Shown piece by piece: positions 3,285 through 16,857 of a stretch of DNA of 38,946 nucleotides. The first letter of the stretch is position 1; each line of letters begins with the position of its first letter. The notes under the pieces are model-generated. The model ran no database searches. It was not told where the DNA came from and worked only from the letters and a program-made list of their open reading frames with translations. The translations under genes and the position numbers were made by a program. The DNA is from Promethearchaeota archaeon. Its GTDB lineage: Archaea > Asgardarchaeota > Lokiarchaeia > Sigyniarchaeales > SOKP01. The stretch covers positions 1 to 38,946 of the forward strand of contig JBHLPW010000048.1 in NCBI GenBank assembly GCA_048939015.1. Reading direction: 5' to 3'.

Positions 3285-4766
3285 TTAAGTAGATTCTGTG
3301 GCCACTTCTTTAGCTTCTTCCTCTATTGGGGTTTCAAATTCTTCTTTTTTAACATAATCTCCTACAGATGCTAAAATTTCTTTTATACGTCCTTCTTGCT
3401 GTAATCTGATGATTAAATTTCTATGTTTGATAAACGAAATTAATTTACCAATTACTGGAAAAAGTAGCATTATTGGTCCTAGTATGATTATAATAACTTC
3501 AGGAGAATATATTGCAACACTTTCAGTAATTGCTGGAGGTAAATGTAAAATTGAACCCAAAAACCAATGGGGGTGTATTATAATGAAACTTATAATTAAA
3601 AGTAAACCTAACCGATATGTAAAGTTAAATAAAGTTGACGTTAACAAATTTCGAGATCTAGGGGCGGATGAACTGGCAGTTAGTGTATCTCTGGCTTCAG
3701 AATCTTCTCGAAAGAGTCGATTTACATATCTTCCTAATCTTCTTGTTTTTGAAGCTGCAGTGACCAATTTCTTTTCCTCCTCCTCTAATTTTTTCTTCTC
3801 TATCATCTCTTTTACATATGAAAATCTTTTGCCTGTCTTAGCGAAAAATTTTCCGATAGCTATTCCTTCTTTTTGTTCTGATTCCAGTTCTTGGATTCTT
3901 TCTTTAGCCTCTTGTTTAATTTTATCAATATTAGCAGTAATAAAATATGACTCTCTTGAGAGTATATCCAACTGGGCTTCGAGTCTTTCGCTTCTTTCTA
4001 ATGATGGTTTTGTGACAGTGTCAGTATAATTAATTTGGAATGCCATTTCTAAATAAATGTAAGATATAATAGCAAAAGATATAACAGGACTAGCCATAAA
4101 TGCAAAGAAGTCATCAAGAGGTATTTGATCTAAACTTGGGTCGATAGGGTTAACCATTTCGTCTAAATATGTAATATGGATATTTATTAAGCCCATCATA
4201 TTTCTTAATCCTTCCACCATGAGAGGAATAATAATCATAAGAACTATTGCTCCAGCTGCAACAAGTGAATGCTTTGGATCATTTGAGAAAAAAGCTCTAA
4301 TTGCATAAATAACAGATACAACAATAAGAACTTGAAAAATAAACAAATAGAGATCATTAAATAATACTTCTGTTTCACCCATTATTAAGGGAAGAATGTG
4401 TCCCAATTCTAGATCTTGTAACTGGAATGTAGGATTACCTAAAAGGTTTCGAATATGCTCCAGATCAAAAGAGAACCATGAAGTTAAGTATCTTTTAAAA
4501 AATCCTTCAATAAATCCAAACATAAAATCAAGATCATAAGCACCAAGTAAGATCGCACACGCAAATGCTATTAACATGCCCCCACCAAAAATTATATAAG
4601 AGAAAATATTTCGAATAGCCCCAAAAAATGCTAATATAACGAGTTCATTATCTGCGGTTGTAATAACTTCATTAAAATGAAAAATTGAAATAAGAAAAAT
4701 AAAGAATAACCAAAAAAATATTGCTAAATTGATAATTTTCAAAACTAACAAATAAATACGAGTCAT
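3285..4766 (-). CDS. Polytopic membrane protein of unknown function with a large charged coiled-coil loop
   Basis: 493 aa; about 5 N-terminal and 2 C-terminal hydrophobic segments flank a ~130-aa E/K-rich helical region; starts 3 nt after the DUF58 stop. Confidence 0.8.
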   Translation of the reverse strand: MTRIYLLVLKIINLAIFFWLFFIFLISIFHFNEVITTADNELVILAFFGAIRNIFSYIIFGGGMLIAFACAILLGAYDLDFMFGFIEGFFKRYLTSWFSFDLEHIRNLLGNPTFQLQDLELGHILPLIMGETEVLFNDLYLFIFQVLIVVSVIYAIRAFFSNDPKHSLVAAGAIVLMIIIPLMVEGLRNMMGLINIHITYLDEMVNPIDPSLDQIPLDDFFAFMASPVISFAIISYIYLEMAFQINYTDTVTKPSLERSERLEAQLDILSRESYFITANIDKIKQEAKERIQELESEQKEGIAIGKFFAKTGKRFSYVKEMIEKKKLEEEEKKLVTAASKTRRLGRYVNRLFREDSEARDTLTASSSAPRSRNLLTSTLFNFTYRLGLLLIISFIIIHPHWFLGSILHLPPAITESVAIYSPEVIIIILGPIMLLFPVIGKLISFIKHRNLIIRLQQEGRIKEILASVGDYVKKEEFETPIEEEAKEVATEST

Positions 4767-4769
4767 TTT

Positions 4770-6224
4770 TTAATACGCCTTTCCTTTTTTCTTAGCTTCC
4801 ATATAATTACTTAATACTTGATTCATCATATCATCAGGTCCACACGTTATTATATTTATTCCCAAGTTTCGAAGTCCGTGCCTTATAGACAAGATGTGCT
4901 CCATCATTTCTTCACTTATAGCTTCTGCCAATGCTTTATCTGTTGATGATAAATCTATTTCATGAATTTCAAACCATGGGCTAAAAGGATTTATTACTAT
5001 GATACTATGATTAAATGGAACTAACTTTTTTATAGCTTGGGAAATATCCTTAGGATTTGCTTCTAGATCCGAAATGAGGAAAATTAAACTCCTTTTTTGA
5101 AAACGTTTCGTAAAGTGGTCCATAGCCTCAATAAATTTGCACTTTCCTTGTGGTTTTATTCTTGCCACAAAATCTAATACTTGGTAGAAATGTTCTTCTC
5201 CACTATCTGGCTTTAGGAAATTAAAATTCTTTTTATCTGAAAAAGTAAACACACCCACATTATCCCTTCTAGTTAATGCGACTTTTGTTAAAAGCATACA
5301 AGACCTTATGGCATACTCAAATTTAGTATTTTCAATTGCTCCACCTGCCATTGTATCTGAAGAATCTACAATAATCATTACAGTTACATCTCTCTCACTT
5401 TCATACTCTTTAACGATTAATGTTTGAGCTCGTGCACTAGCCTTCCAATCTATTAATCTAAATTGATCTCCAAATACGTATTTTCTCATACCATAAAATT
5501 CTGAACCAAGACCTTTTTGTTTTGATCTTTGCAACCCATAATTTAATTGCAATGATCTTTTTGAACCTAAAATTTCAATCCTTTTAATGTCTTCATATGG
5601 TGGATAAATAAGAATATCTGTAACGCTGTCTGGTACAATTCTTTCAACTGAATTAAAACCCAATCTATCTTTTACAATCACAGATAAAGGTCCAAGTGCA
5701 TACTCGCCTCTGACTCTTGGTTCAAGAACATAAGAAAATTTAATCGTACTCTTCGGTCCAATTCTGGTAGATATAAAATTTTCACCTAAAATTAATCTGA
5801 ATAACTGTGGATTGTAATTATCTCTAATTTCAATAAAATCAAAGCTACTACGTCCTATATTTTCAATTACTACTTTAATATGGACAAAATCATCTTTGAA
5901 TACTTTCTCTTTCTCCAATTCTCTATGTACTCTTAATTCCTCAACATTCATTTTATAGTAGAAAATAGGTAGACTAATGATCGTACTGAATAACAACAAT
6001 ACAGCAAAAAAGATTAAGAAATAATTTACAAATGCAAATCCCGCGGTTAGAAAGAATACCGCGAATAAAATTAAAGTTCTACCTTTACCTCCTAAAATAT
6101 AACTCCACCACTTTTTTTCCTTATTTTTTTTAAATATATTAAACCATAAAAAAAGAAGATTATTAGGGTTAAATAGGTACGGGAATTTCTTCAATGATTG
6201 ACTTAAGAACACTCTGTGTATCAA
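4770..6224 (-). CDS. DUF58 / von Willebrand A domain protein, MoxR partner (start uncertain)
   Basis: GSEFYGMRKYVFGDQFRLIDWKASAR DUF58 signature, MIDAS-like IVDSSDTM, LISDL, N-terminal TM helices and an Ig-like segment (PRVRGEYALGP). The only in-frame start before the TM region is a TTG inside moxR. Confidence 0.9.
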   Translation of the reverse strand: MIHRVFLSQSLKKFPYLFNPNNLLFLWFNIFKKNKEKKWWSYILGGKGRTLILFAVFFLTAGFAFVNYFLIFFAVLLLFSTIISLPIFYYKMNVEELRVHRELEKEKVFKDDFVHIKVVIENIGRSSFDFIEIRDNYNPQLFRLILGENFISTRIGPKSTIKFSYVLEPRVRGEYALGPLSVIVKDRLGFNSVERIVPDSVTDILIYPPYEDIKRIEILGSKRSLQLNYGLQRSKQKGLGSEFYGMRKYVFGDQFRLIDWKASARAQTLIVKEYESERDVTVMIIVDSSDTMAGGAIENTKFEYAIRSCMLLTKVALTRRDNVGVFTFSDKKNFNFLKPDSGEEHFYQVLDFVARIKPQGKCKFIEAMDHFTKRFQKRSLIFLISDLEANPKDISQAIKKLVPFNHSIIVINPFSPWFEIHEIDLSSTDKALAEAISEEMMEHILSIRHGLRNLGINIITCGPDDMMNQVLSNYMEAKKKGKAY

Positions 6225-7149
6225 GACCTTCTAATTCGGCTTCTGGCTTTAAAAGAATTCTATGATTTAATGCGGGGACAACTAATGCTCTTACATCATC
6301 AGGAGTAACATATGATCGTCCTAGTATTGCAGCACGTGCTTTAGAACATTTCATTAATGTTAAAGAAGCACGAGGTCCGCATCCAAGAGCAATTTGTGGA
6401 TGATTTCTAGTTTTAAGTATAATATCACGAATGTATTTTAAAATTCTGTCATCAATATACACTAGATTCATAATTTTTTGCGCAGCTAGAATTTCTTCTC
6501 CGGTAGTTATGGCATCTACTGAAGGTGATTCACCTGAGATCTGTCTTCGCATAATTTCAACTTCTTCATCTTGTTCTGGATAATCTAACCACAGTTTGAA
6601 TAAAAACCTGTCAACTTGTGCTTCAGGTAAGGGATATGTTCCCTCCATTTCTACTGGATTTTCAGTTGCTACGACTATAAATGGTTTTTCTAATACCAAT
6701 GTTTGACCTTCAATGGTTATCTGACGTTCCGCCATTGCTTCTAGTAAGGCTGCTTGTGTTTTAGGAGCACTTCTATTAATCTCATCAGCGAGAACCATAT
6801 TCGCAAATAGTGGTCCTTTTTGAAGCACAAACGCCCCCTCATTTTGGTCAAATATCTTAGTACCAGTAATATCCGCGGGGAGTAGATCAGGAGTAAATTG
6901 AACTCTACGAAATGATATTCCCAGTGTTTTTGCAAAAGTTTTTGCCATAACTGTTTTACCTAATCCTGGTACTCCTTCTAGGAGTACATGTCCATTAACA
7001 AGTAAAGCTATGAAGAGTTGCTGTAAAATTTCTCCATAACCAACAATAACACGGCTAACTTCACTTAAAACTTCTTGAGCAATCTCCCTAATAGGTGCAA
7101 CATCTATTTCTTCATGGTCATAATATTTTGCTTTATCTGGAGCTTCCAT
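6169..7149 (-). CDS. moxR: MoxR-family AAA+ ATPase
   Basis: GHVLLEGVPGLGKT (Walker A), RVQFTPDLLPADITG, LADEINR (Walker B), TENPVEMEGTYPLPEAQVDRF; SD-like GAGGT at 7159-7163. Confidence 0.95.
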   Translation of the reverse strand: MEAPDKAKYYDHEEIDVAPIREIAQEVLSEVSRVIVGYGEILQQLFIALLVNGHVLLEGVPGLGKTVMAKTFAKTLGISFRRVQFTPDLLPADITGTKIFDQNEGAFVLQKGPLFANMVLADEINRSAPKTQAALLEAMAERQITIEGQTLVLEKPFIVVATENPVEMEGTYPLPEAQVDRFLFKLWLDYPEQDEEVEIMRRQISGESPSVDAITTGEEILAAQKIMNLVYIDDRILKYIRDIILKTRNHPQIALGCGPRASLTLMKCSKARAAILGRSYVTPDDVRALVVPALNHRILLKPEAELEGLDTQSVLKSIIEEIPVPI

Positions 7150-7220
7150 ATATTTATAACCTCTTTATTTTTTATTTTATTTTCTAATAGTTTTATTATA
7201 AATTTGGATTTTGGATAAGA

Positions 7221-8999
7221 TTAAATATTATTAACTGCCCAACTCATCTCGAAAAATAATTCTTCGAAGTCTTGGTCAGTTTTAACTTTATATTTTCCTT
7301 CTTTAATTGACAAAATTCTATCCATAAATTTACTCAATCTTTTTGTTTTTAATTTTGTTGTTGCTGGATTTTTTGAAATAACTAAATTTATTACATTATC
7401 AGTGGTAATTTTGGCACCTCCTAATTGACTATTCAATTTACGTTCTAGGCGTCTATAAAGTAGTTTTAAAGCATCTCCATATTTCATTTTATCTCTATAT
7501 TCCTCAATCTTTTGAGCGAAAAAGGAGGACGTTCGAAACCGAGCCATTTCTTCTTTTTTTTCTTCCTCTTCAGCAATTTTTTCTTCTTCCTTTTTCTTAT
7601 CCTTTTTAGGAAGATATCTCCTTAATGAATAATACGCCAAGAGCGGATAAATCCAAGCAGTAATAGGATTTGTTGATAAATGTACAATGTATTGCATTAT
7701 ATATCCAAATATTCCTGCTGATGTAAGATCTCTTGAATATTCAGGTCTAAGATGTGCTTCATCAAAAACTACAATCCATTCATCTTTACTCCTTCCTTCG
7801 TTGGCATAAGTGAGCCACTCAATAATGTTCAAACCAAATTGTAGGTTATCATAACCAGATTCAACAATTAATTCATTATTAAATAGACTAGCATCAGCAG
7901 ATACAAATATGCGTTGCCTACCCATATCATTTGCTAAAAATACACTTTGAGAGTATCCACCAAGTGGTAAACTTGTTGGAAAAGGAAGAGGAAGACTTCC
8001 TGCAAGTATACTCATAAATCCTAAATCAAGATCATCATTGGGAGAATCATATCTATGATTAAAAGGTTCTTTATCAATGAAACCGTATTCAGTTGTAGTT
8101 CCAATAGAAGTCCAACCGAAGGCCTCAATAAAGGGCCCTCCCACTGCACATGAAGCACGTGATAAAATTACTTCATTTACACCAGATGTTGTTGGATGAG
8201 CAGCAAAATTTTTGATAACAGGAAATTCTGGAGTTGTATCATATGATGCATTGTCTCTTAATATTCCATCCGGAAAAATAGTTAGAGGAACATTTATTGT
8301 TGGTTCAAACACACTCGCTATTAATATTTCCCATAATAATGTGCTTGTAGATCCATGATCATGACATATTAATAGAGAGTTAGTGCCTTGAAAAAAATCA
8401 ATAAAATATGGGACTTCAAAAATAGGATCATAAAATTGATTTGGTCCCATTAAAACAAGTAATATTGAAGTCTTTTCTTTATTATTAATTGTTTGATTTA
8501 TTAACCTGTCAGTAGCACTCAAACTTGATTGGACAGTCATCACATCATATCCATCTGATTCAATTTCACTTTTAAAGGTTCCAGCACCGTTCCAGGAATC
8601 AATATTATATACTGAATTATTTTGATTGTTTTCACCCTGATCAATTATAGGGGAAAATAAAGGTATGAAAACAAATATAAATATTATTATAAAAAGAGCT
8701 TGCTTATATATTGATCCAGATTTGATTTTCTTTCGCGATTGACTTTCACGCATCTTTTGTGTTGTAGCATTTCTAATAAATACAATAAAAGTAATGCCAC
8801 TAAATATTGACCCTAAATAACATAGGAGAGGAATATAAGTCACAAAAAAAGGCAAGTCTACTGGATGTTCTTCTTTAAAAAGGCCAATAAAATTAGTAAT
8901 AATAATTCCAAAAATAATTAGATATATTGTTAAGAATGTAAAAATTATTCCTTTTGAAATATTTATACTCTTTTGTGTTGCTTTTCCAGGTTTCACCAT
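7221..8999 (-). CDS. DUF4350-like (GATase-like fold) membrane protein with C-terminal cytoplasmic helical domain
   Basis: Three N-terminal TMs; NGAGTF, RIFVSADASLFNNELI, DNLQF and VVFDEAH motifs typical of DUF4350 proteins in MoxR operons; then a TM and a charged tail. Confidence 0.65.
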   Translation of the reverse strand: MVKPGKATQKSINISKGIIFTFLTIYLIIFGIIITNFIGLFKEEHPVDLPFFVTYIPLLCYLGSIFSGITFIVFIRNATTQKMRESQSRKKIKSGSIYKQALFIIIFIFVFIPLFSPIIDQGENNQNNSVYNIDSWNGAGTFKSEIESDGYDVMTVQSSLSATDRLINQTINNKEKTSILLVLMGPNQFYDPIFEVPYFIDFFQGTNSLLICHDHGSTSTLLWEILIASVFEPTINVPLTIFPDGILRDNASYDTTPEFPVIKNFAAHPTTSGVNEVILSRASCAVGGPFIEAFGWTSIGTTTEYGFIDKEPFNHRYDSPNDDLDLGFMSILAGSLPLPFPTSLPLGGYSQSVFLANDMGRQRIFVSADASLFNNELIVESGYDNLQFGLNIIEWLTYANEGRSKDEWIVVFDEAHLRPEYSRDLTSAGIFGYIMQYIVHLSTNPITAWIYPLLAYYSLRRYLPKKDKKKEEEKIAEEEEKKEEMARFRTSSFFAQKIEEYRDKMKYGDALKLLYRRLERKLNSQLGGAKITTDNVINLVISKNPATTKLKTKRLSKFMDRILSIKEGKYKVKTDQDFEELFFEMSWAVNNI

Positions 9000-9054
9000 T
9001 GTACTTTCATATCATTAATTATTGGAATTTATTAGACAATAATGTAAATCGAAC

Positions 9055-9432
9055 CTAGAGTTCAAATGCAAAAGATTTTCCTGTGATCTCATTGTATAAA
9101 TTCGTGAACAAATCAATTGTGTAGTTTAATTCCTTATTCGTTGGTTCTACTCCACCATAGATAATATCTTCTATTTTTTTTATAAATGGGTACACCGATT
9201 CTGGTTTCAAACTCTTTTCTAATTGATTGACACATGCAATAGCATATTCACGAATTGTCTCATGTGCAAGCCTAGGTTTTTTAAACTTTATATTGATAAG
9301 ATCGTCATATACAAGATAAATGTAAGCAATTGCTTCTTTAGGTCTATTTGTTTCAACTAATATTTTTACATTATCAAATCTTTGTTTAATATTAATCTCT
9401 GGTTCTGGTTGTTTCTTTTTCTTTTTTGCCAT
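9055..9432 (-). CDS. Stand-alone DUF4129-like soluble protein, paralogue of the C-terminal domain of 9549-11147
   Basis: ETIREYA...VYPFIKKIEDIIYG aligns with ETIRDFA...IYPFIQKVEEIIYA in the upstream gene; ETxRE and late Y pattern as in DUF4129. Confidence 0.7.
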   Translation of the reverse strand: MAKKKKKQPEPEINIKQRFDNVKILVETNRPKEAIAYIYLVYDDLINIKFKKPRLAHETIREYAIACVNQLEKSLKPESVYPFIKKIEDIIYGGVEPTNKELNYTIDLFTNLYNEITGKSFAFEL

Positions 9433-9548
9433 TATTTTTTACCATTTTATATATTTTTTGAAATATCTATTATATAATTTTTTTTGATTTTATATTTCTT
9501 TTTACTTTTTTTTAATTTTACTCTTAATTTTTTTATTTTTGATGAGTT

Positions 9549-11147
9549 TTAAAAATTTAATACAAAATTATAGCCTGTTAATTGAAAATAAATAGGTGAA
9601 AACAATCCACAAGTATTATAGAAATCTTTTTCACTTATATTAAAGGGTCTTGCATATATTATCTCCTCAACCTTTTGAATAAAAGGATAAATCGATGCGG
9701 GAGTTAGTTTTAATTCTTTTACAGAAATTATTGCAAAATCTCTAATTGTCTCATTATAATTTCTTGTCCGATTAAATTTTGCATTGATTAAATCCATATA
9801 GATTGCATTAAATAAATATGATATTGATTCCTCAATTCTTCCTGAATCTTTAAGAATTTTAAGATTTATGATTTTAGATTCAAGTGGTAAATGAACAACA
9901 CGAGACTCTTTTTCCTGTTTCTTATAATATCTATAGCCAAATACTGCTAGTACTGCAATAATGACGCCTAAGATTGGAAAAAATATTATGGAAAATACTA
10001 AAAATGGAGGCCATCGAAATTGTTCTGTGGTTGATGTAGGAGCAGATTCAATTACTATCCATTTTAAAGAGGAATTAATTTCTCTTCCCAAAACATTATG
10101 AATTAATCGCGCTTGAATTGATGCTGTTCCATTTGGTGGATTGATTTGAAAAGTATGGGAGAAAGTACCATCAGAAGCTGTTGTCGTTGTACCTTTTGAA
10201 GATCCATTATACAAAATTTCTATTTCCCTATCATTAATTCTAAGAGAGGGAACCGTTAAAGAAAATAATGTTCCAGTTAATTCATAATTATCTCCCACAG
10301 TAGCTAAATAATTAATGTTTAAATCCCATGCTACATCTGAGAATACTTTAATGTTAGTTATACTAACTTCTGAATAATTAACATAAGGAGCGTTTGAGTA
10401 ATTAAATTTAAGAGTCAAATAACTTACAACAGTAATTGGAATTTGCAAGCTTGTAAGAAGAGCTCCTGAAGAATCAGTGAGAAAAGAACCTTGAGAAATA
10501 ATTATAGAACCAGCTAACCAATAATAGTTAACACTTACAGAACCTATTCCATTTCCATTATCGTAATATAAGAATCCATTAAAATTGAAATCCTCTTCGG
10601 TTAATTTAGGGATTGAAACATCATCATGAGAAGCTATATTAAAGTAAGATGTAGCGTTAACTTCAATAGTATAGAAGTCTAAATATTCGATTTCGCTCCC
10701 TGGTCCTCCAGGTTCTGAATCGGTCACTATAACATCTATTTTATGGCTTGAATAAATATCAAGCAGAGGATCAATAGTATAGAAAATATTGAATCTTCCC
10801 AAGGAATCAGTTATATCTGTATATCCCATGTCAGTAATATCATTAACTTGAATAGCCACATTAACACCTGATTTATTACTTCCATCAATTTTATTATAAA
10901 GATGTCCTTTTATAGAAATGATGGAGTTACGATAGAATCTCTTATTGTGAACTTCACTTGGGTTTGTAAGCTCCAGAGTTGCCCAAAACCAAGACATTTT
11001 TGGATTATTTTTTGAATTTGGGTAAGTTTCTTTAAAATTAAGACGAGAAATTGAAGCAAAATTAATAAATAAGAGTAAAGATATAACTAGAATTCCAAAT
11101 ATTTTCATCTTATTGTTAAGATGTTTAGGAATCTTGTACTTTTTCAT
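9549..11147 (-). CDS. Surface/membrane protein: N-terminal signal or TM, ~3 Ig-like repeats, TM, cytoplasmic DUF4129-like domain
   Basis: Repeats of GxL...TDxxGxF (TDSLGRF, TDSSGAL, TASDGTF), many NxS/T sequons, TM (FLVFSIIFFPILGVIIAVLAVFGY), then a DUF4129-like tail. Confidence 0.75.
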   Translation of the reverse strand: MKKYKIPKHLNNKMKIFGILVISLLLFINFASISRLNFKETYPNSKNNPKMSWFWATLELTNPSEVHNKRFYRNSIISIKGHLYNKIDGSNKSGVNVAIQVNDITDMGYTDITDSLGRFNIFYTIDPLLDIYSSHKIDVIVTDSEPGGPGSEIEYLDFYTIEVNATSYFNIASHDDVSIPKLTEEDFNFNGFLYYDNGNGIGSVSVNYYWLAGSIIISQGSFLTDSSGALLTSLQIPITVVSYLTLKFNYSNAPYVNYSEVSITNIKVFSDVAWDLNINYLATVGDNYELTGTLFSLTVPSLRINDREIEILYNGSSKGTTTTASDGTFSHTFQINPPNGTASIQARLIHNVLGREINSSLKWIVIESAPTSTTEQFRWPPFLVFSIIFFPILGVIIAVLAVFGYRYYKKQEKESRVVHLPLESKIINLKILKDSGRIEESISYLFNAIYMDLINAKFNRTRNYNETIRDFAIISVKELKLTPASIYPFIQKVEEIIYARPFNISEKDFYNTCGLFSPIYFQLTGYNFVLNF

Positions 11148-11174
11148 TTTTCTTTACTTCACTCTTTTTAATTT

Positions 11175-14100
11175 TTATGGTACTCTAAATACTTCTTGTT
11201 CAATTATTAATATATATAGTCCATCAGGAATACCAAAATTACTGGGATCTTCAGGGTAGAAGTTTACCCATACTTCGGTATTATCTGGCCAATCTCCAAC
11301 AATAAATGTTAGATTGAAAAACCCAGTACCATCAGTAAAGCCTAATTGAGTAGCTAATATTGTACCAGCTCCATCTGTAATGGTTACATTAATTTCCATT
11401 CCTACCATTGCTGTTCCGTTATCCCAATAAAGATATCCATATACATAACAATCATCCCCATAATACCAATCATCTTTAACGACATTGGTTTCATAATTTC
11501 CTGTAATATAATTGCCTGCTAGTACATCAATTGATATTAGTGTTAGTGCAGTACTATTTTTTTCCATATAATTTGTTAAATATATACCTGGAGCATTTAT
11601 ATCTCCATCAAAATCAATTCTTATATAATAATCACCTTGAGGACAACTCATATCAATCGAGTTATCAAATTGGTAGTAACCTAGAGCATCAGTTATGATT
11701 GAAGTAGATCCACTTAGGTATGATATAGAAACATCAGTTAAAGTGTCATCCAACAATCGAATATTAACAACTAAACCTCTTAGTAATTCGCCATTCTCTC
11801 GAAGAGTACCATCAACAATAAAACTATCAACGTTTCTAATTAGAGTAGCTTGATTAATACTTGCAAAGATACTAGCAGTTTTATTAATAATAACATAAGT
11901 ACTATTTACTGCTGGAGATCCTGACCACTGAACTTCTATTCGATGAAGACCACCATGCCATCCAAGTGTAGAAACTGAAATTGAGGCAAAACTGTTAATT
12001 ACAGATTGAGGAGTACCTAATGTTAAACCAGTATAAATATCGGTGAATGTAACTGTACCAGAATTAACTATACTGCTGTACTGATAGACATATACAGAGA
12101 AATTTATATTTTCGATTCCAGTATATGTCTCAGGGGGATTTCCATTCGAATAAAATGATTGAGTTGGATTTCCGTCAATAAAGAAATATATATCAACATC
12201 TAGGGGATCAATAACTTTTAAATCATAAAATCCTGGTGTACTATCAGTAAAGTTTGCTATAGTCCACAAATCAAAATATTGGGGATAATTTGGGTTGGTA
12301 TAAATAAATACTCCATTATAATCAACTTGAAGGGTATAATTTCTGGTTGGTGTTGAATCTGAAACTGAATAAGTGAGATCTATTTCTCCCGATGCTCCTA
12401 GCTGTAAAGAGCCGGAAACCAAATTTAAATAGAATGATACTGGCGTAATTCCATCATACAAAAGAACACTTATCTCTCCATATTTAACGGGATTTCCATT
12501 AAGAGAATCGTTCAGATATCCATGGATTATGAAGTCTGTACCTACACTCCCACTTCGGTTAACAGATCTAGGCTCAGGACATATATCCAGAGTAACATTA
12601 ATAGGGGCATCTAATATAAAATATGAGTAATTGTATCGATTATTCCATGTGGCATAGATTAAATGTGGACCTGCTGTGGTAGTAAATCCTGTAGAATAAG
12701 AAACTTGTGCTGTTCCATTAATCGTTTGATCAGAGCCAATTAAAAGATTATCTTGAGTTACATCATAAAAATGAACCCACTCATCATCACCAATAGGAAC
12801 ACCCCCATATTGTATAAACGCTGTGAGATTCAAATCATCATAACGATCAATAACCGGGTTAAAAGGATCATCGGATGAAAATCCATCTATCCAGAAGCTA
12901 AATCTTAATGTAGCTGGGATATTTATTTGCAATTCATAGCTGAAAACTGTTGAAGTATTAATAAATGGTAAATTGAATGAATAAGAATAAGGATAGGATG
13001 ATAAATCGATTGTTCCATTAAAATCTAATCTTAAAGTGTAGTTTCCGGGAGGAGTAGTTGAGAAAACTCCAAATGTTAAGTCAAAATTACCAGTTGAATC
13101 CGTTTGATAGGGATAAATTTCACTTGGAACTAAATATGATGAAAAGTCTACTCCACTTTTTAATAATTTCAGAGTGATTTCTGAGAAACTTATAGGTAAA
13201 GTTGGAGTAATACTATCTACTATCTCTCCTACAATATTAAATTGGGTAGCACCTCCGCCAGTACGGTTTATAACCCTGGGTGTTGGTCCAGAAATAATAT
13301 TTATAGTAGGAGCTTCATTTAATACAAAATATGAATAATTTGGTTGTAATCCAACCATTGCATATAATAAATTAGGTCCAGCTCTGCAGTAATCATCGAC
13401 TGTATAAAGAATAGAGGCTATTCCATTAGAATTTGAAATATCAGATCCAATCCAAACATTACCTCTTGAATAATCATAAAAATTTACAATTTTATTAGGT
13501 ATAGGTCCTGTTCCTAAAGATAATACTTGAGCTGTGAGATTCAAATCATGATATCGAGACACCGTAGGACTAGTAGGATTATTTGATGAGAATCCATCAA
13601 TATAGAACCATACGTCTAAAGCTTTTGTAATATTAAAATCAATTCTGTTACTGGAATTAGTAAATGGAAAATAATAAGCTCCAAATCCAATGGATAAGAT
13701 GAAATAATCATAGGATCCTAAAGGGGTATCAATCCACCATGTTCCATTAAGATCAGCTCGTACTTCATAATTTCCAGCTGAAGCATAAATAAGATTTAAA
13801 AAGTCATCGAAATCACCATTAGTAGATGTGTTTATAGAGGAGGGGGAGAAGGCGTTAAACACTTCATTACTTGTACCTTTTTGGAATAAACGTATATTTA
13901 TCTCAGGACCCTCAACTCTTCCACTAATCGGTCCTAGTAGTGGATCATATACAAAACCAACTATGTTTGTGACATCTGGAAGAGTATCAGAAATATTAAT
14001 TGCTCCTGGATTGACGTTAGTTAGTGCGATTGAAATATCTCCCAAAATTGTTGTCAGATTATAACCTGCTGTAAATAAATCATATCTTGCTTCAATTAAG

Positions 14101-15668
14101 TGAGGGCCAACTATTTGAGAGCTGTCAACATTAAATGAAACTGATGCTCTACCTGCGAAATCAGTGACACTTTGACCAATCTCTTGCCCAGTAGTCGTAT
14201 CTGTAAATGTGAGTGTTAAACCTTCAACAGGGTCAGAGCTTGAATTTATTGTAGCATTTATAATTGCAACATCTGGTCTAATATAAGATAGTTGATCGAG
14301 AGTAACAGTAATATTGTAATTACCTCCTATTACTGGATTCCCACCGCCTCCATAAGCGTCGAAAACATTAAATTGGACCCATTTTCCATTTCCAGAGACA
14401 TCAGTGGGAACATAAATTTCTGCCCAACTAAATAAATTTTCATATTTTATTGCAAACGCATTTTTTCCTTCATCAACATCATAAAACTCTTCAATTGTAT
14501 AACTTTGAAAGCCATCAACAAATCTGCTTGCTATTCCAAATGCACGAGAAAAAGCACAAAAAGCGGAAGCAAAATCGGACCAAATTCCTTGCCCAGTCTC
14601 ACAAAACCATTCTACTATATCTGTTCCTTCGGGAGCGGGATTATAATCATCAGCAGTCATTGGAAATGAGAATTGACTTTGAAGATAGTTCCTAATTTTG
14701 CTAGCAGCAAAGAAAGCGTTATCACTGGGATTTATTATTCCATCTAACACATTATAATGAGTAGTAAAATCATCGTTGTTTGTCTTGTATAGTTCTATTG
14801 AAGGTGGTAATTGCAGATATTTATCTTTTATATACGCTGGTGTCCAAACAGCTTCAACGGCACTTGAATTTAACTCCTCAGCGGAAGGTAAATGATTATA
14901 TAATCCAAACATATCAAATGTCATGTTAACATCATCCGCTGCATTAAAAGATAGATCTAACGTAGTACAATTATACTCACCTTTATAGAATTTAGGTGAT
15001 GCTAAATCTAAGTTTGGAGCATAAATACTTCCATCAATTACAAAGGGAATAGGAAAGAGAGTAGGTATAGTCATTGTATTAGAACCCATATTTGGTGATA
15101 GTGGCATTTTAATTGTCAAGAGTTCAGGATCAGGAGAATATTGTGAAAGATATTCACCATAAGAGTAAAAATTATAGAGATCACTACCTGCATTAGACGT
15201 CCATCCATCACCAGTATATTCATCAAAACATTCCATCTTCCATAGAACATTTGTCATATTACTAAAGTCAAGATAATCATACACCCTAAATACCTCAATT
15301 TCACCAGCTTGTGTAAATAATAGATCACGGAGAGCATCAGAAAAATCATTTAAATCTAAATCATCAATATCTCCATCAAACATATCTGATAACATATCAA
15401 GTAAAGATTGGGGATCATCCACTTGATCTAACAAATCCTGCCAAAAATCTTCGTCAAACGGAAAAGGTGGTTTTATTAATAATGCATCTTCAGTTGGATG
15501 ATCCTTAAGTTCTTCACTTGGGAATGGTCTTTGAGAGCCAAAGAGAACGCTAAAAAAAACAGTGGAGAAGGCAAAGATACTAATAAGGATAATTACTACT
15601 AGTATTGTTCCAATAATTCTTTTTTTATTGATGCCGCCTCCTAGTATTTCCTCTCTCAATTCAGACAT
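11175..15668 (-). CDS. Large membrane-anchored glycoprotein with a degenerate transglutaminase-like domain and tandem Ig-like repeats
   Basis: N-terminal TM; WKMECFDEYTGDGW (TgpA-like N-region); GIWSDFASAF..RAFGIASRFVDGF, FSWAEIY and WVQFN match the TGase scaffold; ~1000 aa of beta-rich repeats with abundant sequons. Confidence 0.85.
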   Translation of the reverse strand: MSELREEILGGGINKKRIIGTILVVIILISIFAFSTVFFSVLFGSQRPFPSEELKDHPTEDALLIKPPFPFDEDFWQDLLDQVDDPQSLLDMLSDMFDGDIDDLDLNDFSDALRDLLFTQAGEIEVFRVYDYLDFSNMTNVLWKMECFDEYTGDGWTSNAGSDLYNFYSYGEYLSQYSPDPELLTIKMPLSPNMGSNTMTIPTLFPIPFVIDGSIYAPNLDLASPKFYKGEYNCTTLDLSFNAADDVNMTFDMFGLYNHLPSAEELNSSAVEAVWTPAYIKDKYLQLPPSIELYKTNNDDFTTHYNVLDGIINPSDNAFFAASKIRNYLQSQFSFPMTADDYNPAPEGTDIVEWFCETGQGIWSDFASAFCAFSRAFGIASRFVDGFQSYTIEEFYDVDEGKNAFAIKYENLFSWAEIYVPTDVSGNGKWVQFNVFDAYGGGGNPVIGGNYNITVTLDQLSYIRPDVAIINATINSSSDPVEGLTLTFTDTTTGQEIGQSVTDFAGRASVSFNVDSSQIVGPHLIEARYDLFTAGYNLTTILGDISIALTNVNPGAINISDTLPDVTNIVGFVYDPLLGPISGRVEGPEINIRLFQKGTSNEVFNAFSPSSINTSTNGDFDDFLNLIYASAGNYEVRADLNGTWWIDTPLGSYDYFILSIGFGAYYFPFTNSSNRIDFNITKALDVWFYIDGFSSNNPTSPTVSRYHDLNLTAQVLSLGTGPIPNKIVNFYDYSRGNVWIGSDISNSNGIASILYTVDDYCRAGPNLLYAMVGLQPNYSYFVLNEAPTINIISGPTPRVINRTGGGATQFNIVGEIVDSITPTLPISFSEITLKLLKSGVDFSSYLVPSEIYPYQTDSTGNFDLTFGVFSTTPPGNYTLRLDFNGTIDLSSYPYSYSFNLPFINTSTVFSYELQINIPATLRFSFWIDGFSSDDPFNPVIDRYDDLNLTAFIQYGGVPIGDDEWVHFYDVTQDNLLIGSDQTINGTAQVSYSTGFTTTAGPHLIYATWNNRYNYSYFILDAPINVTLDICPEPRSVNRSGSVGTDFIIHGYLNDSLNGNPVKYGEISVLLYDGITPVSFYLNLVSGSLQLGASGEIDLTYSVSDSTPTRNYTLQVDYNGVFIYTNPNYPQYFDLWTIANFTDSTPGFYDLKVIDPLDVDIYFFIDGNPTQSFYSNGNPPETYTGIENINFSVYVYQYSSIVNSGTVTFTDIYTGLTLGTPQSVINSFASISVSTLGWHGGLHRIEVQWSGSPAVNSTYVIINKTASIFASINQATLIRNVDSFIVDGTLRENGELLRGLVVNIRLLDDTLTDVSISYLSGSTSIITDALGYYQFDNSIDMSCPQGDYYIRIDFDGDINAPGIYLTNYMEKNSTALTLISIDVLAGNYITGNYETNVVKDDWYYGDDCYVYGYLYWDNGTAMVGMEINVTITDGAGTILATQLGFTDGTGFFNLTFIVGDWPDNTEVWVNFYPEDPSNFGIPDGLYILIIEQEVFRVP
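12820..13549 (-). repeat. Intragenic ~711-nt (237-aa) repeat unit in the 1497-aa protein
   Basis: Identical 19-mer GCTGTGAGATTCAAATCAT at 12820-12838 and 13531-13549; protein repeats IDGFSS..RYxDLNLTA..IGSD..AGP..NYSYFxL..NYTL..NG; a more diverged third copy starts at FFIDGNP. Confidence 0.85.
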
Positions 15669-15918: not shown

Positions 15919-16857
15919 CTAAAATTCAAAACCGCATTTAGTACAGACCAGTTTTTTAGCATATATTGGTTTTGGAATGTAGCTAATTATTCGTGTTTTA
16001 TCTTCAACTTCTTTTACAGCAAAACCACTCGCACCGCAATTGGGGCAAAGTCTTCTTCCAGAAGCTGATTGAACTGATGGACTGGGAGTAGATGTTGTCG
16101 TAGGAGTTAAAGATGGACCAGTACTATAGCTAGTTGTTTGATTTGTAATGCCTTGTGCTAAACTAGAGGGCATAACTGCTTTAGGCTCTTTCAATTCTTG
16201 GATTCGTTTTTCTTTGTATACAACCTCTTCCTGTAATTTAGTTATTTGTGCCTGCAAAGGTCCAATTTGTTGTTGTAGCATTGAATTATGTTGTTGTAGC
16301 TCTTGAACCTGTTGCTGTAATCCAGGAATATGAGCTTGTAGTTGAGCATTTTCATCAGTCAATTGCTTTACTTGTTGTTGATATGCTTCATTTGAACTCT
16401 GAAGAGATTGTAACTGATTTGTTATTCTATTCACTTGACTTTCCTTTTCTCTAATAAAAGCATTTAATTGTGAATTCTGGCTGCTAAGTTCATTAATTTG
16501 CGATTGTAATTGATTCAAAGTTGAATCTTTTTGTTGAAGTTGCATTCTAACTGAATCAAATTCCTCTTGTGAGGGACCTATCGAAATTGAAGGTGCTGGT
16601 TCTATTCTAGGAGGGGCTACAGTTTCCATGGTTGGTGGTGGAGTTCGTTCAAGTGAAGGTGGAGAAGGTATTTGGAGAGTAGGAGGGGCAGGAGGTGTCG
16701 TAAGAGGTGGAGCAGTACTAGGTGGTGTAGCTGTAGGAGGAGGCATTGATGGAGGAGGTGTTAATGGGGTTACTGAAGGAGGTGGCATTGAAGGTGCTGA
16801 AAATGGTTTTTTTTCCCTTTCTTTATCATTATCATTTCTCTCATATTCGTCCGACAT
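15919..16857 (-). CDS. Proline-rich / coiled-coil / C-terminal zinc-ribbon protein
   Basis: N-terminal poly-Pro low-complexity segment (PSMPPP twice), ~125-aa Q-rich heptad coiled coil, S/T linker, then CPNCG...CTKCGFEF. Confidence 0.85.
   Translation of the reverse strand: MSDEYERNDNDKEREKKPFSAPSMPPPSVTPLTPPPSMPPPTATPPSTAPPLTTPPAPPTLQIPSPPSLERTPPPTMETVAPPRIEPAPSISIGPSQEEFDSVRMQLQQKDSTLNQLQSQINELSSQNSQLNAFIREKESQVNRITNQLQSLQSSNEAYQQQVKQLTDENAQLQAHIPGLQQQVQELQQHNSMLQQQIGPLQAQITKLQEEVVYKEKRIQELKEPKAVMPSSLAQGITNQTTSYSTGPSLTPTTTSTPSPSVQSASGRRLCPNCGASGFAVKEVEDKTRIISYIPKPIYAKKLVCTKCGFEF

What the first reader, a model, noticed from the sequence alone, without database searches (positions are those of the whole stretch)
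3285..15668. Seven-gene MoxR-vWA envelope system built around a catalytically dead transglutaminase-Ig surface protein
Seen: seven co-oriented genes with short gaps encode a 1497-aa pseudo-TGase/Ig glycoprotein, an Ig-TM-DUF4129-like protein, a free DUF4129-like protein, a DUF4350-like membrane protein, MoxR, DUF58/vWA and an unknown polytopic protein with a coiled-coil loop. Established: MoxR-DUF58-transglutaminase-DUF4129/DUF4350 operons are widespread and functionally uncharacterised, and their TGase normally has a Cys-His-Asp triad. Inference: this version has turned the enzyme into a binding or structural subunit, split the anchor onto a second chain and added a membrane subunit. It may be an ATP-driven trans-envelope machine for assembling or remodelling a surface appendage or adhesin, relevant to Asgard cell-surface structures and partner contact. 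Best candidate here for an undescribed system.
Basis: partly seen in the sequence, partly recalled or inferred. Interest (0 to 1): 0.82.

Follow-up and report, generated by a model that had tools for sequence, protein, structure and literature searches.

The report
Asgard-wide MoxR–vWA–pseudo-transglutaminase membrane operon
The seven genes are real and are the Lokiarchaeial form of an operon found across almost all Asgard archaea: an ATPase and its adaptor inside the cell, giant surface proteins outside, and a membrane protein found only in Asgard; this kind of system was predicted by others in 2012 and 2015, and its function has never been tested in archaea.

Summary
Seven co-oriented minus-strand genes (3285-15668) encode a TgpA-type transglutaminase/Ig surface protein that has lost its catalytic triad (W363/F413/N434), an Ig-TM-DUF4129 protein, a free DUF4129 protein, a DUF4350 (GldG-like) protein, MoxR, DUF58/vWA and a polytopic protein with a long helical hairpin.

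- The order TGase-Ig-TM-DUF4129, DUF4350, MoxR, DUF58, polytopic protein holds in loci from 12 other Asgard families.
- Orthologues of the polytopic protein occur in 267 of 301 sampled genomes, and of DUF58 in 281 of 301.
- In most lineages the first two window genes are one fused gene, so the split is derived. It is not unique to this order.
- The polytopic subunit was not added in this version. It is phylum-wide, and I found it nowhere outside Asgard.
- The triad is intact in two families and replaced in different ways in the others, so inactivation was repeated.

The kind of system is already in the literature: the MoxR-vWA-TGL operon (2012), the arCOG01314 complex (2015) and the TgpA operon of Pseudomonas. 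I therefore call it a new variant of a known but uncharacterised kind. The mechanism I propose is inferred: MoxR and vWA remodel membrane-anchored surface proteins through their cytoplasmic DUF4129 tails.

The parts
11175..15668 (-). P0001, 1497 aa. N-terminal signal-anchor TM (aa 21-39), TgpA-type transglutaminase-like domain without the catalytic triad, then repeated Ig-like beta-sandwich domains. Predicted extracellular and acidic, with 34 N-x-S/T sequons.
   Evidence: Transglut_core 7e-13; topology and sequons; profile hit to TgpA 6g49, E 1.8e-15; internal repeats.
14367..14744 (-). Transglutaminase core (aa 309-434). The triad positions read W363 (14580-14582), F413 (14430-14432) and N434 (14367-14369) where Cys, His and Asp are expected.
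   Evidence: In the genus the Cys position is W, Y or F and the His position is Y or F. Asp is kept in most relatives but is N here.
9549..11147 (-). P0002, 532 aa. Signal/TM, Ig-like ectodomain (aa 39-381), TM (382-400) and a cytoplasmic DUF4129-like domain (aa 405-530, coordinates 9558-9935). It corresponds to the C-terminal half of the fused protein of other Asgard lineages.
   Evidence: (DUF4129 profile 97.4%).
9055..9432 (-). P0003, 125 aa. A free cytoplasmic DUF4129 domain that models as a five-helix bundle. It is 82-90% identical across the genus.
   Evidence: invariant R61; near-invariant E88, F109, G118; pLDDT 86.
7221..8999 (-). P0004, 592 aa. Three N-terminal TMs, an extracellular DUF4350 (GldG/ABC_transp_aux-like) domain, a TM, and a cytoplasmic K/E-rich linker followed by a probable third DUF4129-like domain.
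   Evidence: weak; orthologues 1e-18 to 1e-20; 99.5%; C-terminus against DUF4129: 75%, E 2.5e-5.
6169..7149 (-). P0005, 326 aa. MoxR-type AAA+ ATPase with Walker A GVPGLGKT and Walker B LADEINR. Cytoplasmic. It is 90-97% identical across the genus.
   Evidence: (AAA_3 7e-64, AAA_lid_2 9e-25).
4770..6098 (-). DUF58 protein. N-terminal TM hairpin, Ig-like domain, and a vWA domain with a MIDAS-like D-x-S-x-T motif. Predicted cytoplasmic. The likely start is ATT at 6096-6098, after GGTGGAG at 6103-6109. The longest ORF from TTG 6224 adds 42 residues that are not conserved.
   Evidence: DUF58 4e-32, VWA_2 4e-9; profile maps to 4773-6098.
3285..4766 (-). P0007, 493 aa. Polytopic membrane protein of about 7-8 TMs with a K/R-rich, presumably cytoplasmic, helical hairpin (aa 227-354) and conserved motifs YxYLExxFQ, RRL, LTA..AP and SVE..PE. 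The family was found only in Asgard and is always next to DUF58.

Best explanation
The seven genes encode one membrane complex. It is the Lokiarchaeial form of an Asgard-wide operon that joins two known but uncharacterised prokaryotic modules: MoxR-DUF58(vWA)-TgpA-like transglutaminase, and DUF4129-DUF4350-MoxR-DUF58. To these it adds a polytopic subunit found only in Asgard.

What is shown: the domain content, the gene order, the conservation across the phylum, the gene fission and the loss of the triad.

What is inferred from topology:
- On the cytoplasmic side sit the MoxR hexamer, the Ig+vWA part of the membrane-tethered DUF58, up to three DUF4129 helical domains (the P0002 tail, free P0003 and the P0004 tail) and the helical hairpin of P0007.
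- Outside sit the roughly 1450-aa pseudo-TGase/Ig ectodomain, the Ig ectodomain of P0002 and the GldG-like DUF4350 domain.

What is inferred by analogy with other MoxR-vWA pairs (CbbQ-CbbO, NorQ-NorD, RavA-ViaA, midasin): DUF58 uses its MIDAS site to hold a cytoplasmic element of the single-pass surface proteins, most plausibly the DUF4129 domain with its conserved Arg and Glu. MoxR then uses ATP to remodel it. This would drive assembly, maturation or a conformational switch of the resident surface complex, with P0007 acting as the membrane scaffold.

In this lineage the TGase domain no longer catalyses anything and serves as a binding or structural module.
For: - Domains.
- One module: the same order was found in loci of 12 further Asgard families. 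DUF58 and the polytopic gene stay adjacent even where the cluster is interrupted (L013, L014, L015, L016).
- Phyletic pattern: the polytopic protein is in 267/301 genomes and the DUF58 orthologue in 281/301. Neither was found in the same five families, f5, f6, f14, f17 and f20, which include genomes 96-100% complete.
- Copy number: the window's own genome has a single DUF58 gene.
- Topology: positive-inside charge pattern, and sequon density of 2.0-2.3 per 100 aa in the ectodomains against 0.3-0.4 in MoxR and DUF58.
- Rates of change across six same-genus species: MoxR 90-97%, DUF58 87-93%, free DUF4129 82-90%, P0004 67-77%, P0007 66-69%, P0002 48-66%, P0001 40-68%. The flanking housekeeping genes are 68-82%. 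This is the pattern of a constrained cytoplasmic motor with fast-evolving surface parts.
- Pseudoenzyme kept: intact ORFs and conserved scaffold motifs with aromatic residues at the Cys and His positions throughout the genus. The operon is kept whether the triad is intact (f12, f23) or lost, so the conserved function does not depend on catalysis.
- The bacterial four-gene core DUF4129-DUF4350-MoxR-DUF58 lacks a TGase altogether. That points to DUF4129 and DUF4350 as the core clients or partners.
- Literature: PA2875-PA2874-tgpA are co-transcribed and TgpA is periplasmic and essential (PMC3507681). A related archaeal complex was predicted in PMC5898192.
Against: - No physical interaction is shown, and co-transcription is untested.
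- The step from the vWA MIDAS site to DUF4129 is pure inference.
- Makarova et al. 2015 predicted the vWA protein to be secreted. If DUF58 faces outward, the model fails.
- A TM count of 7 or 8 for P0007 leaves the orientation of its N-terminus open.
- The DUF4129-like nature of the P0004 C-terminus has only moderate support (75%).
- P0007 could have remote homologues in euryarchaeal arCOG01314 neighbourhoods. I could not test this.
Confidence: 0.55

Rival explanations
1. It is a dedicated secretion or export and assembly system, as Makarova et al. 2015 predicted for arCOG01314 neighbourhoods. In this reading the DUF4350 (GldG-like) protein, the membrane proteins and MoxR-vWA form a conduit or assembly platform that exports the giant Ig-rich protein and mounts it as a surface-layer component.
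For: - DUF4350 is GldG-like. It also matches ABC_transp_aux, and PMC5898192 section 3.2 makes the same link.
- The largest product is a 1497-aa extracellular Ig-rich protein.
- Most components are membrane or extracellular proteins.
Against: - P0001 and P0002 carry ordinary N-terminal signal or anchor sequences, which fit Sec-dependent insertion.
- No pore-forming or ABC permease component was identified.
- P0007 gave no informative fold match to transporters.
- The bacterial four-gene core has no large secreted cargo gene.
Confidence: 0.2
2. It is a membrane-proximal, ATP-dependent protein degradation or processing system, as Zhang and Aravind 2012 proposed for MoxR-vWA-TGL operons. In this reading vWA recruits substrates, MoxR unfolds them and the TGL domain cleaves them.
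For: - The same three-gene association of MoxR, vWA and TGL is present (PMC3495828).
- The triad is intact in two Asgard families, f12 and f23.
Against: - In the window the Cys, His and Asp are all replaced.
- In most sampled Asgard families at least the nucleophile is replaced.
- The TGL domain lies after a signal anchor, in a sequon-rich acidic ectodomain, on the other side of the membrane from MoxR.
- TgpA's domain is periplasmic and has transglutaminase activity (PMC3507681).
Confidence: 0.07
3. It is a general envelope-stress or homeostasis module, like the Bacteroides aerotolerance (Bat) MoxR-DUF58 operon or the MoxR stress phenotypes seen in bacteria. In this reading MoxR and DUF58 serve diffuse membrane clients, and the surface proteins are regulators or sensors rather than the clients.
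For: - MoxR-DUF58 pairs occur in stress-linked operons (literature listed).
- A third DUF4129-like tail and a free DUF4129 protein could act as adaptors or decoys.
Against: - No BatA-E-type partners (TM-vWA or TPR proteins) are present.
- The strict phylum-wide linkage to the TGase-Ig-DUF4129 and DUF4350 genes argues for dedicated partners.
Confidence: 0.1
4. It is a chance neighbourhood: the MoxR-DUF58 pair and the surface protein genes are functionally unrelated and only happen to be adjacent.
For: In family f2 the cluster is interrupted by 4-7 kb of unrelated genes. In some genomes the TGase gene lies on another contig.
Against: - The order is conserved in 12 other families, with matching presence and absence across the phylum.
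- Homologous linkage is found in bacteria.
Confidence: 0.03

Closest known systems
MoxR-vWA(DUF58)-TgpA/YebA-like transglutaminase operon (Zhang & Aravind 2012, PMC3495828; P. aeruginosa PA2875-PA2874-tgpA, PMC3507681)
   Same: - A MoxR AAA_3 ATPase, a DUF58 vWA protein and a membrane-anchored TGase-like protein are encoded together.
- The best solved relative of the TGase domain is TgpA (6g49, E 1.8e-15).
- In the fused Asgard orthologues DUF4129 follows the last TM, as in TgpA-type proteins.
   Different: - The triad is lost here (W/F/N).
- There is a single N-terminal TM instead of the polytopic TgpA_N domain.
- About 1000 aa of Ig repeats have been added.
- The DUF4129 anchor is split onto a second gene.
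- There are extra DUF4350, free DUF4129 and Asgard-only polytopic genes.
arCOG01314 (DUF4350/GldG-like)-MoxR-vWA-Ig protein neighbourhood, a predicted archaeal secretion or membrane-remodelling complex (Makarova, Galperin, Koonin 2015, PMC5898192)
   Same: - A DUF4350 membrane protein, a COG0714 MoxR ATPase and an Ig+vWA protein are present.
- Ig-rich surface proteins and small or polytopic membrane proteins sit in one operon.
   Different: - That description has no TGase and no DUF4129.
- Its S-layer-like arCOG02884/pfam07760 proteins are not seen here.
- Its 5-TM proteins (arCOG07126, arCOG11232) could not be compared with P0007.
- I infer that the vWA protein is cytoplasmic, not secreted.
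Bacterial DUF7544/DUF7847-DUF4129-DUF4350-MoxR-DUF58 (+SpoIIM, RDD) cluster, seen here in Chloroflexota, Gemmatimonadota, Myxococcota, Cyanobacteria, Armatimonadota and Poribacteria
   Same: - The same four-gene core is in the same order.
- DUF4350 matches at 99.5% and DUF4129 at 97.4% by profile comparison.
- These loci hold the nearest non-Asgard DUF58 relatives found, about 30% identical.
   Different: - The bacterial clusters have no TGase or Ig ectodomain.
- Their accessory membrane proteins are DUF7544-like, SpoIIM and RDD. None is detectably related to P0007 (probability below 1%).
PFNA cluster of bifidobacteria (pkb2-fn3-MoxR-duf58-tgm; PMC8430577)
   Same: A beta-sandwich-rich surface protein, MoxR, DUF58 and a membrane transglutaminase are encoded together, and the surface parts evolve fast.
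   Different: - PFNA includes a Ser/Thr kinase and phosphatase, and FN3 rather than Big/MG2-type repeats.
- Nothing in the passages I read says the PFNA TGase is inactive.
- Those passages do not mention DUF4350 or P0007-like genes.

Membership tests
MoxR-vWA-TgpA/YebA-like TGL operon | A MoxR-family AAA+ ATPase (AAA_3) is encoded in the operon | tested here: met
   AAA_3 E 6.8e-64 and AAA_lid_2 E 8.6e-25 in P0005.
MoxR-vWA-TgpA/YebA-like TGL operon | An adjacent DUF58-type vWA protein | tested here: met
   DUF58 E 3.9e-32 and VWA_2 E 3.9e-9. The MIDAS-like D-x-S-x-T motif and the invariant D348 are in the orthologue alignment.
MoxR-vWA-TgpA/YebA-like TGL operon | A membrane-anchored protein with a transglutaminase-like core related to TgpA | tested here: met
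   Transglut_core 7e-13; profile against 6g49 TgpA, E 1.8e-15.
MoxR-vWA-TgpA/YebA-like TGL operon | A catalytic Cys-His-Asp triad | tested here: not met
   W363, F413 and N434 stand at the aligned positions. The triad is intact only in orthologues of families f12 and f23.
MoxR-vWA-TgpA/YebA-like TGL operon | A polytopic N-terminal TgpA_N (DUF3488) membrane domain on the TGase protein | tested here: not met
   a single TM at aa 21-39. Orthologues give only weak partial TgpA_N matches (E 0.001-0.007) to the non-TM part of the profile.
DUF4129-DUF4350-MoxR-DUF58 core (bacterial and archaeal; arCOG01314 neighbourhood) | A membrane protein with an extracytoplasmic DUF4350/GldG-like domain | tested here: met
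   The window protein is weak (E 0.004), but orthologues score 1e-18 to 1e-20 and hhalign against bacterial DUF4350 gives 99.5%.
DUF4129-DUF4350-MoxR-DUF58 core (bacterial and archaeal; arCOG01314 neighbourhood) | A membrane protein ending in a cytoplasmic DUF4129 domain | tested here: met
   There is no Pfam hit on P0002 or P0003 themselves. The orthologous fused proteins score up to 4.6e-13, hhalign gives 97.4%, and the alignment is.
DUF4129-DUF4350-MoxR-DUF58 core (bacterial and archaeal; arCOG01314 neighbourhood) | Accessory SpoIIM, RDD or DUF7544-like membrane proteins (bacterial form), or arCOG02884/pfam07760 S-layer-like proteins (archaeal form) | tested here: not met
   None of the seven proteins has such a Pfam hit. 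P0007 against the bacterial accessory families gives below 1%. The euryarchaeal 5-TM arCOGs were not tested.
Bat (Bacteroides aerotolerance) operon | BatA/BatB TM-vWA proteins, the TPR protein BatC, and BatD/BatE next to MoxR-DUF58 | tested here: not met
   only a weak BatD-like Ig match inside DUF58 (E 0.022). The cluster has no second vWA protein and no TPR protein.
PFNA cluster | A Ser/Thr protein kinase (pkb2) and an FN3 protein upstream of MoxR-DUF58-tgm | tested here: not met
   no kinase or FN3 domain in the cluster or its flanks.

The most novel reading that the evidence does not exclude
The operon encodes a previously unrecognised kind of ATP-driven inside-out machine that is specific to Asgard archaea. 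A cytoplasmic MoxR-vWA motor, docked on the Asgard-only polytopic protein P0007, pulls on the DUF4129 tails of single-pass proteins. This switches or assembles a giant, fast-evolving pseudo-transglutaminase/Ig adhesin on the cell surface or on protrusions, and so controls contact with syntrophic partners.
Probability: 0.15. Interest if true: 0.8.

Novelty: new variant of a known kind. Interest (0 to 1): 0.55.

Why it matters
Little is known at the molecular level about the cell surface of Asgard archaea, the closest known archaeal relatives of eukaryotes. This operon has four properties that make it a good target:
- It is single-copy in the window's genome and present in about 90% of the sampled genomes of the phylum.
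- It encodes one of the largest predicted surface proteins in the window.
- It is coupled to a highly conserved ATPase.
- It includes a membrane subunit found nowhere else.

That makes it a concrete, testable candidate for a core component of the Asgard envelope in cultured Lokiarchaeia.

It also offers a natural experiment on how pseudoenzymes evolve. The same operon carries an intact Cys-His-Asp triad in two families and at least four different replacement patterns in the others.

It may also help to explain the uncharacterised MoxR-DUF58-DUF4129-DUF4350 modules that are widespread in bacteria. One of these systems, with TgpA, contains an essential gene in Pseudomonas aeruginosa.

Tried and rejected
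- Complex prediction on the DUF58 cytoplasmic part with free DUF4129: no verdict, so it is not used as evidence either way.
- The look-up of sequencing runs: no RNA holder is listed, so co-transcription could not be examined.
- The search for related loci with the DUF4350 alignment failed because no stretch was conserved enough.
- The search for homologous proteins with a Hodarchaeal DUF4350 protein returned only Asgard proteins. I therefore could not fetch euryarchaeal arCOG01314 loci, and P0007 was not compared with arCOG07126 or arCOG11232.
- P0007 model against PDB: Foldseek gave no match at E <= 0.001. VIA wide gave only generic helical bundles, Z <= 9.4, below the level that means anything for helical proteins.
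- P0007 in the Atlas: only Promethearchaeota clusters scored above 0.9.
- phmmer of the window's TGase region against PDB gave nothing. The profile search was needed.
- The DUF4129 model gave only weak HEPN-like helical-bundle rows (E >= 0.5). I treat this as a lead and nothing more.
- I considered and rejected the idea that P0007 is the detached TgpA_N membrane domain or a SpoIIM, RDD or DUF7544 homologue: there is no Pfam hit and hhalign gives below 1%.
- The apparent scattering of the cluster in the 'one-contig' genomes G006 and G022 is probably an artefact of concatenated scaffolds: a 100-N gap interrupts the G006 cluster. G022 was not checked.

Full report
**What is in the window**

Seven ORFs lie head to tail on the minus strand between 3285 and 15668. 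They are bounded by a convergent F420-biosynthesis block (radical SAM/CofE/CofD, plus strand) at the 3' end. At the 5' end, after a 250-nt gap, comes a coiled-coil/Zn-ribbon gene, then a histone-deacetylase-family gene, a Ras-family GTPase and MCM. Names attached to near-identical proteins place the contig in Lokiarchaeia/Promethearchaeota.

Pfam finds the following:
- Transglut_core in the 1497-aa protein, aa 309-434, E 7e-13.
- AAA_3 and AAA_lid_2 in the 326-aa protein, which is MoxR.
- DUF58 and VWA_2 in the next protein.
- A weak DUF4350/ABC_transp_aux signal in the 592-aa protein.
- Nothing significant for the 532-aa, 125-aa and 493-aa proteins. NCBIfam also finds nothing for them.

**Checking the weak domain calls through orthologues**

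In other Asgard lineages the orthologue of P0004 scores DUF4350 at 1e-18 to 1e-20. The protein that corresponds to P0001 plus P0002 ends in a Pfam DUF4129 domain, with E as low as 4.6e-13.

I built profiles from the Asgard orthologues and compared them with the bacterial families. DUF4350 matches at 99.5% and DUF4129 at 97.4%. The C-terminal 130 aa of the DUF4350 proteins resemble DUF4129 at 75% probability, E 2.5e-5, so a third copy is plausible but not firm.

P0003 aligns over its whole length with the cytoplasmic tail of P0002 and with the tails of the fused proteins. R61 is invariant, and E88, F109 and G118 are nearly so. P0003 models confidently as a five-helix bundle (pLDDT 86).

**The transglutaminase is dead, and this happened more than once**

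A profile of the N-terminal regions hits the solved periplasmic domain of P. aeruginosa TgpA (6g49) at E 1.8e-15, and factor XIII and TG2 more weakly. In those alignments the window's W363, F413 and N434 fall on the catalytic Cys, His and Asp.

Within the genus:
- The Cys position is W, Y or F.
- The His position is Y or F.
- The Asp is usually kept, but is N in the window.
- The ORFs are intact and the surrounding motifs (SDFASA, NWAEIYV, WVQFD) are conserved.

Across the phylum:
- The triad is intact in families f12 (named Jord-/Freyarchaeia-like) and f23.
- It reads Ser-His-Asp in f25 (Hodarchaeales-like) and f7 (Odinarchaeia-like).
- It reads Asp-His-Glu in f30.
- It reads Pro/Thr-or-Met/Leu in f11 (Thorarchaeia).
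- In the other families of the window's order, Pro or Tyr stands at the Cys position.

The operon is kept in all of these lineages, so its conserved role does not require catalysis.

**Conservation of the gene order**

The 493-aa polytopic protein has a single-copy homologue in all 41 relatives searched, and in 267 of 301 genomes sampled across the phylum, which is 60 of 70 genera.

I fetched 20-kb stretches around it from 12 other families. They show the order [TGase-Ig-TM-DUF4129], DUF4350, MoxR, DUF58, polytopic protein.

- In most families the first element is one protein of 1170-2377 aa. The window's P0001 and P0002 are therefore the products of a gene fission.
- The fission is shared by families f1 and f2. 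A comparable split with a small DUF4129 gene is also seen in f9 (L028).
- Free DUF4129 genes occur as well in Thorarchaeia and in f26.
- In f2 unrelated genes (TPR, LRR and a DEAD-box helicase on the other strand) separate MoxR from DUF58, yet DUF58 and the polytopic gene stay adjacent.
- In six species of the same genus the whole block, from the HDAC gene to CofD, is collinear.

A profile of the DUF58 orthologues finds the gene in 281 of 301 genomes. Neither DUF58 nor the polytopic protein was found in the same five families (f5, f6, f14, f17, f20), which include genomes 96-100% complete. In the deepest lineages (f21, f24) a profile still finds weak polytopic homologues of 393-420 aa in two of four genomes tested. 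The window's own genome has one DUF58 gene.

**The polytopic protein**

The alignment of 21 orthologues shows conserved motifs at the cytoplasmic end of a TM helix (YxYLExxFQ), in the hairpin (ER..L, RRL, LTA..AP) and in a short acidic outer loop (SVE..PE). The model has pLDDT 78 and shows about seven or eight TM helices plus a helical hairpin at aa 227-305 and 313-354.

- A profile search of 1.84 billion representative proteins returns only 138 clusters.
- Every named cluster member that I looked up carries an Asgard name. Some of the most divergent carry an old 'Korarchaeota' label inside Njordarchaeales clusters.
- There is no informative fold match.
- There is no profile similarity to the accessory membrane proteins of the bacterial clusters.

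I could not compare it with the 5-TM arCOGs listed by Makarova et al.

**Relatives outside Asgard, and the literature**

The nearest non-Asgard DUF58 genes found, about 30% identical, lie in bacterial clusters of the form DUF7544/DUF7847-like polytopic protein, DUF4129 protein, DUF4350 protein, MoxR, DUF58. SpoIIM and RDD genes sit beside them. I recovered this in about 37 of 67 bacterial loci from several phyla, and none had a TGase.

In the literature:
- Zhang and Aravind (PMC3495828) described the widespread MoxR-vWA-TGL operon and proposed a membrane-proximal degradation system.
- Milani et al. (PMC3507681) showed that PA2875-PA2874-tgpA are co-transcribed and that TgpA is essential, with an active periplasmic TGase.
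- Makarova et al. (PMC5898192) predicted a secretion or membrane-remodelling complex from archaeal DUF4350-MoxR-vWA-Ig neighbourhoods.
- The bifidobacterial PFNA cluster combines an FN3 surface protein with MoxR, DUF58 and a TGase.
- Full-text searches for 'Asgard' together with 'MoxR', and for 'Asgard' together with 'transglutaminase', found no paper whose title or abstract concerns this operon in Asgard archaea. I did not open those papers.

**Topology and proposed mechanism**

Charge distribution and sequon density place the proteins as follows.
- Outside: the large parts of P0001 and P0002. P0004's DUF4350 domain is put outside on its TM order and loop charges, though its sequon density is low (0.6 per 100 aa).
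- Inside: MoxR, the Ig+vWA part of DUF58, the DUF4129 domains and the K/R-rich hairpin of P0007.

MoxR and DUF58 keep their Walker and MIDAS-like motifs.

Across the genus the cytoplasmic parts are far more conserved than flanking housekeeping genes, and the ectodomains far less so:

| Protein | Identity to window, six same-genus species |
|---|---|
| MoxR | 90-97% |
| DUF58 | 87-93% |
| P0003 (free DUF4129) | 82-90% |
| Flanking HDAC and CofD | 68-82% |
| P0004 (DUF4350) | 67-77% |
| P0007 (polytopic) | 66-69% |
| P0002 | 48-66% |
| P0001 | 40-68% |

By analogy with characterised MoxR-vWA pairs, I propose that DUF58 tethers MoxR to the DUF4129 tails and that ATP hydrolysis remodels or assembles the resident surface complex, with P0007 as the membrane scaffold. 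This last step is inference. The one complex prediction I ran gave no verdict, and no RNA data were available.

**Verdict**

This is a new variant of a known, computationally described but functionally uncharacterised kind of system. Its notable features are:
- conservation across the phylum;
- a subunit found only in Asgard;
- repeated inactivation of the TGase;
- gene fission in some lineages.

Noticed in passing
window 6096-6109 (minus strand); L143-L148: The DUF58 gene seems to start at a non-canonical ATT or ATA codon. In six same-genus relatives an in-frame stop lies a few codons upstream of the conserved N-terminus ILGGKGR, with no ATG, GTG or TTG in between. A Shine-Dalgarno-like GGTGGAG or AGGTG(G) lies about 5-12 nt upstream in about four of the seven, including the window. 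A weak start codon could keep the vWA adaptor scarce relative to MoxR (inference).
   Followed up: partly
L013:4551-11962 and L014:10879-15249: In the sister Lokiarchaeial family f2 the cluster is interrupted between MoxR and DUF58 by 4-7 kb. The insert carries TPR and LRR proteins, a DEAD-box helicase on the other strand, and several genes with no family match.
   Followed up: partly
L028:4-3558: Genome G065 (family f9) has a second, more divergent DUF4350-MoxR-DUF58 module directly upstream of the main seven-gene cluster.
   Followed up: no
L031:6304-11016: The orthologue in family f12 (Jord-/Freyarchaeia-like) carries two TGase-like domains in tandem. The first has an intact Cys-His-Asp triad.
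   Followed up: partly
L024:13449-14741; L018:13199-14602: Asgard DUF4350 proteins give weak matches, below the cut-off (E 0.005-0.007), to the IFT52 GIFT domain. MoxR has been proposed as the precursor of dynein and midasin, and inactive TGL domains occur in ciliary proteins (PMC3495828). One Asgard operon thus brings together three domain families that have ciliary relatives. I have no evidence of direct descent, and the TGL domain here is extracellular.
   Followed up: no
window 9055-9432 (model m28ca98d1dbed): The DUF4129 domain models as a five-helix bundle. Its best, non-significant, Foldseek rows are HEPN-domain proteins (probability 0.8-0.87, TM 0.46-0.56).
   Followed up: partly
window 15919-16857: The upstream proline-rich coiled-coil/Zn-ribbon gene keeps its position next to the cluster in all six same-genus genomes examined (64-79% identity). 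It is not found upstream of the cluster in the other families, so it is probably not part of the system.
   Followed up: partly
L046-L112: A seven-gene bacterial neighbourhood (DUF7544/DUF7847-like polytopic protein, DUF4129, DUF4350, MoxR, DUF58, SpoIIM, RDD) recurs across Chloroflexota, Gemmatimonadota, Myxococcota, Cyanobacteria and Armatimonadota. In Myxococcota the polytopic and DUF4129 parts are fused.
   Followed up: partly
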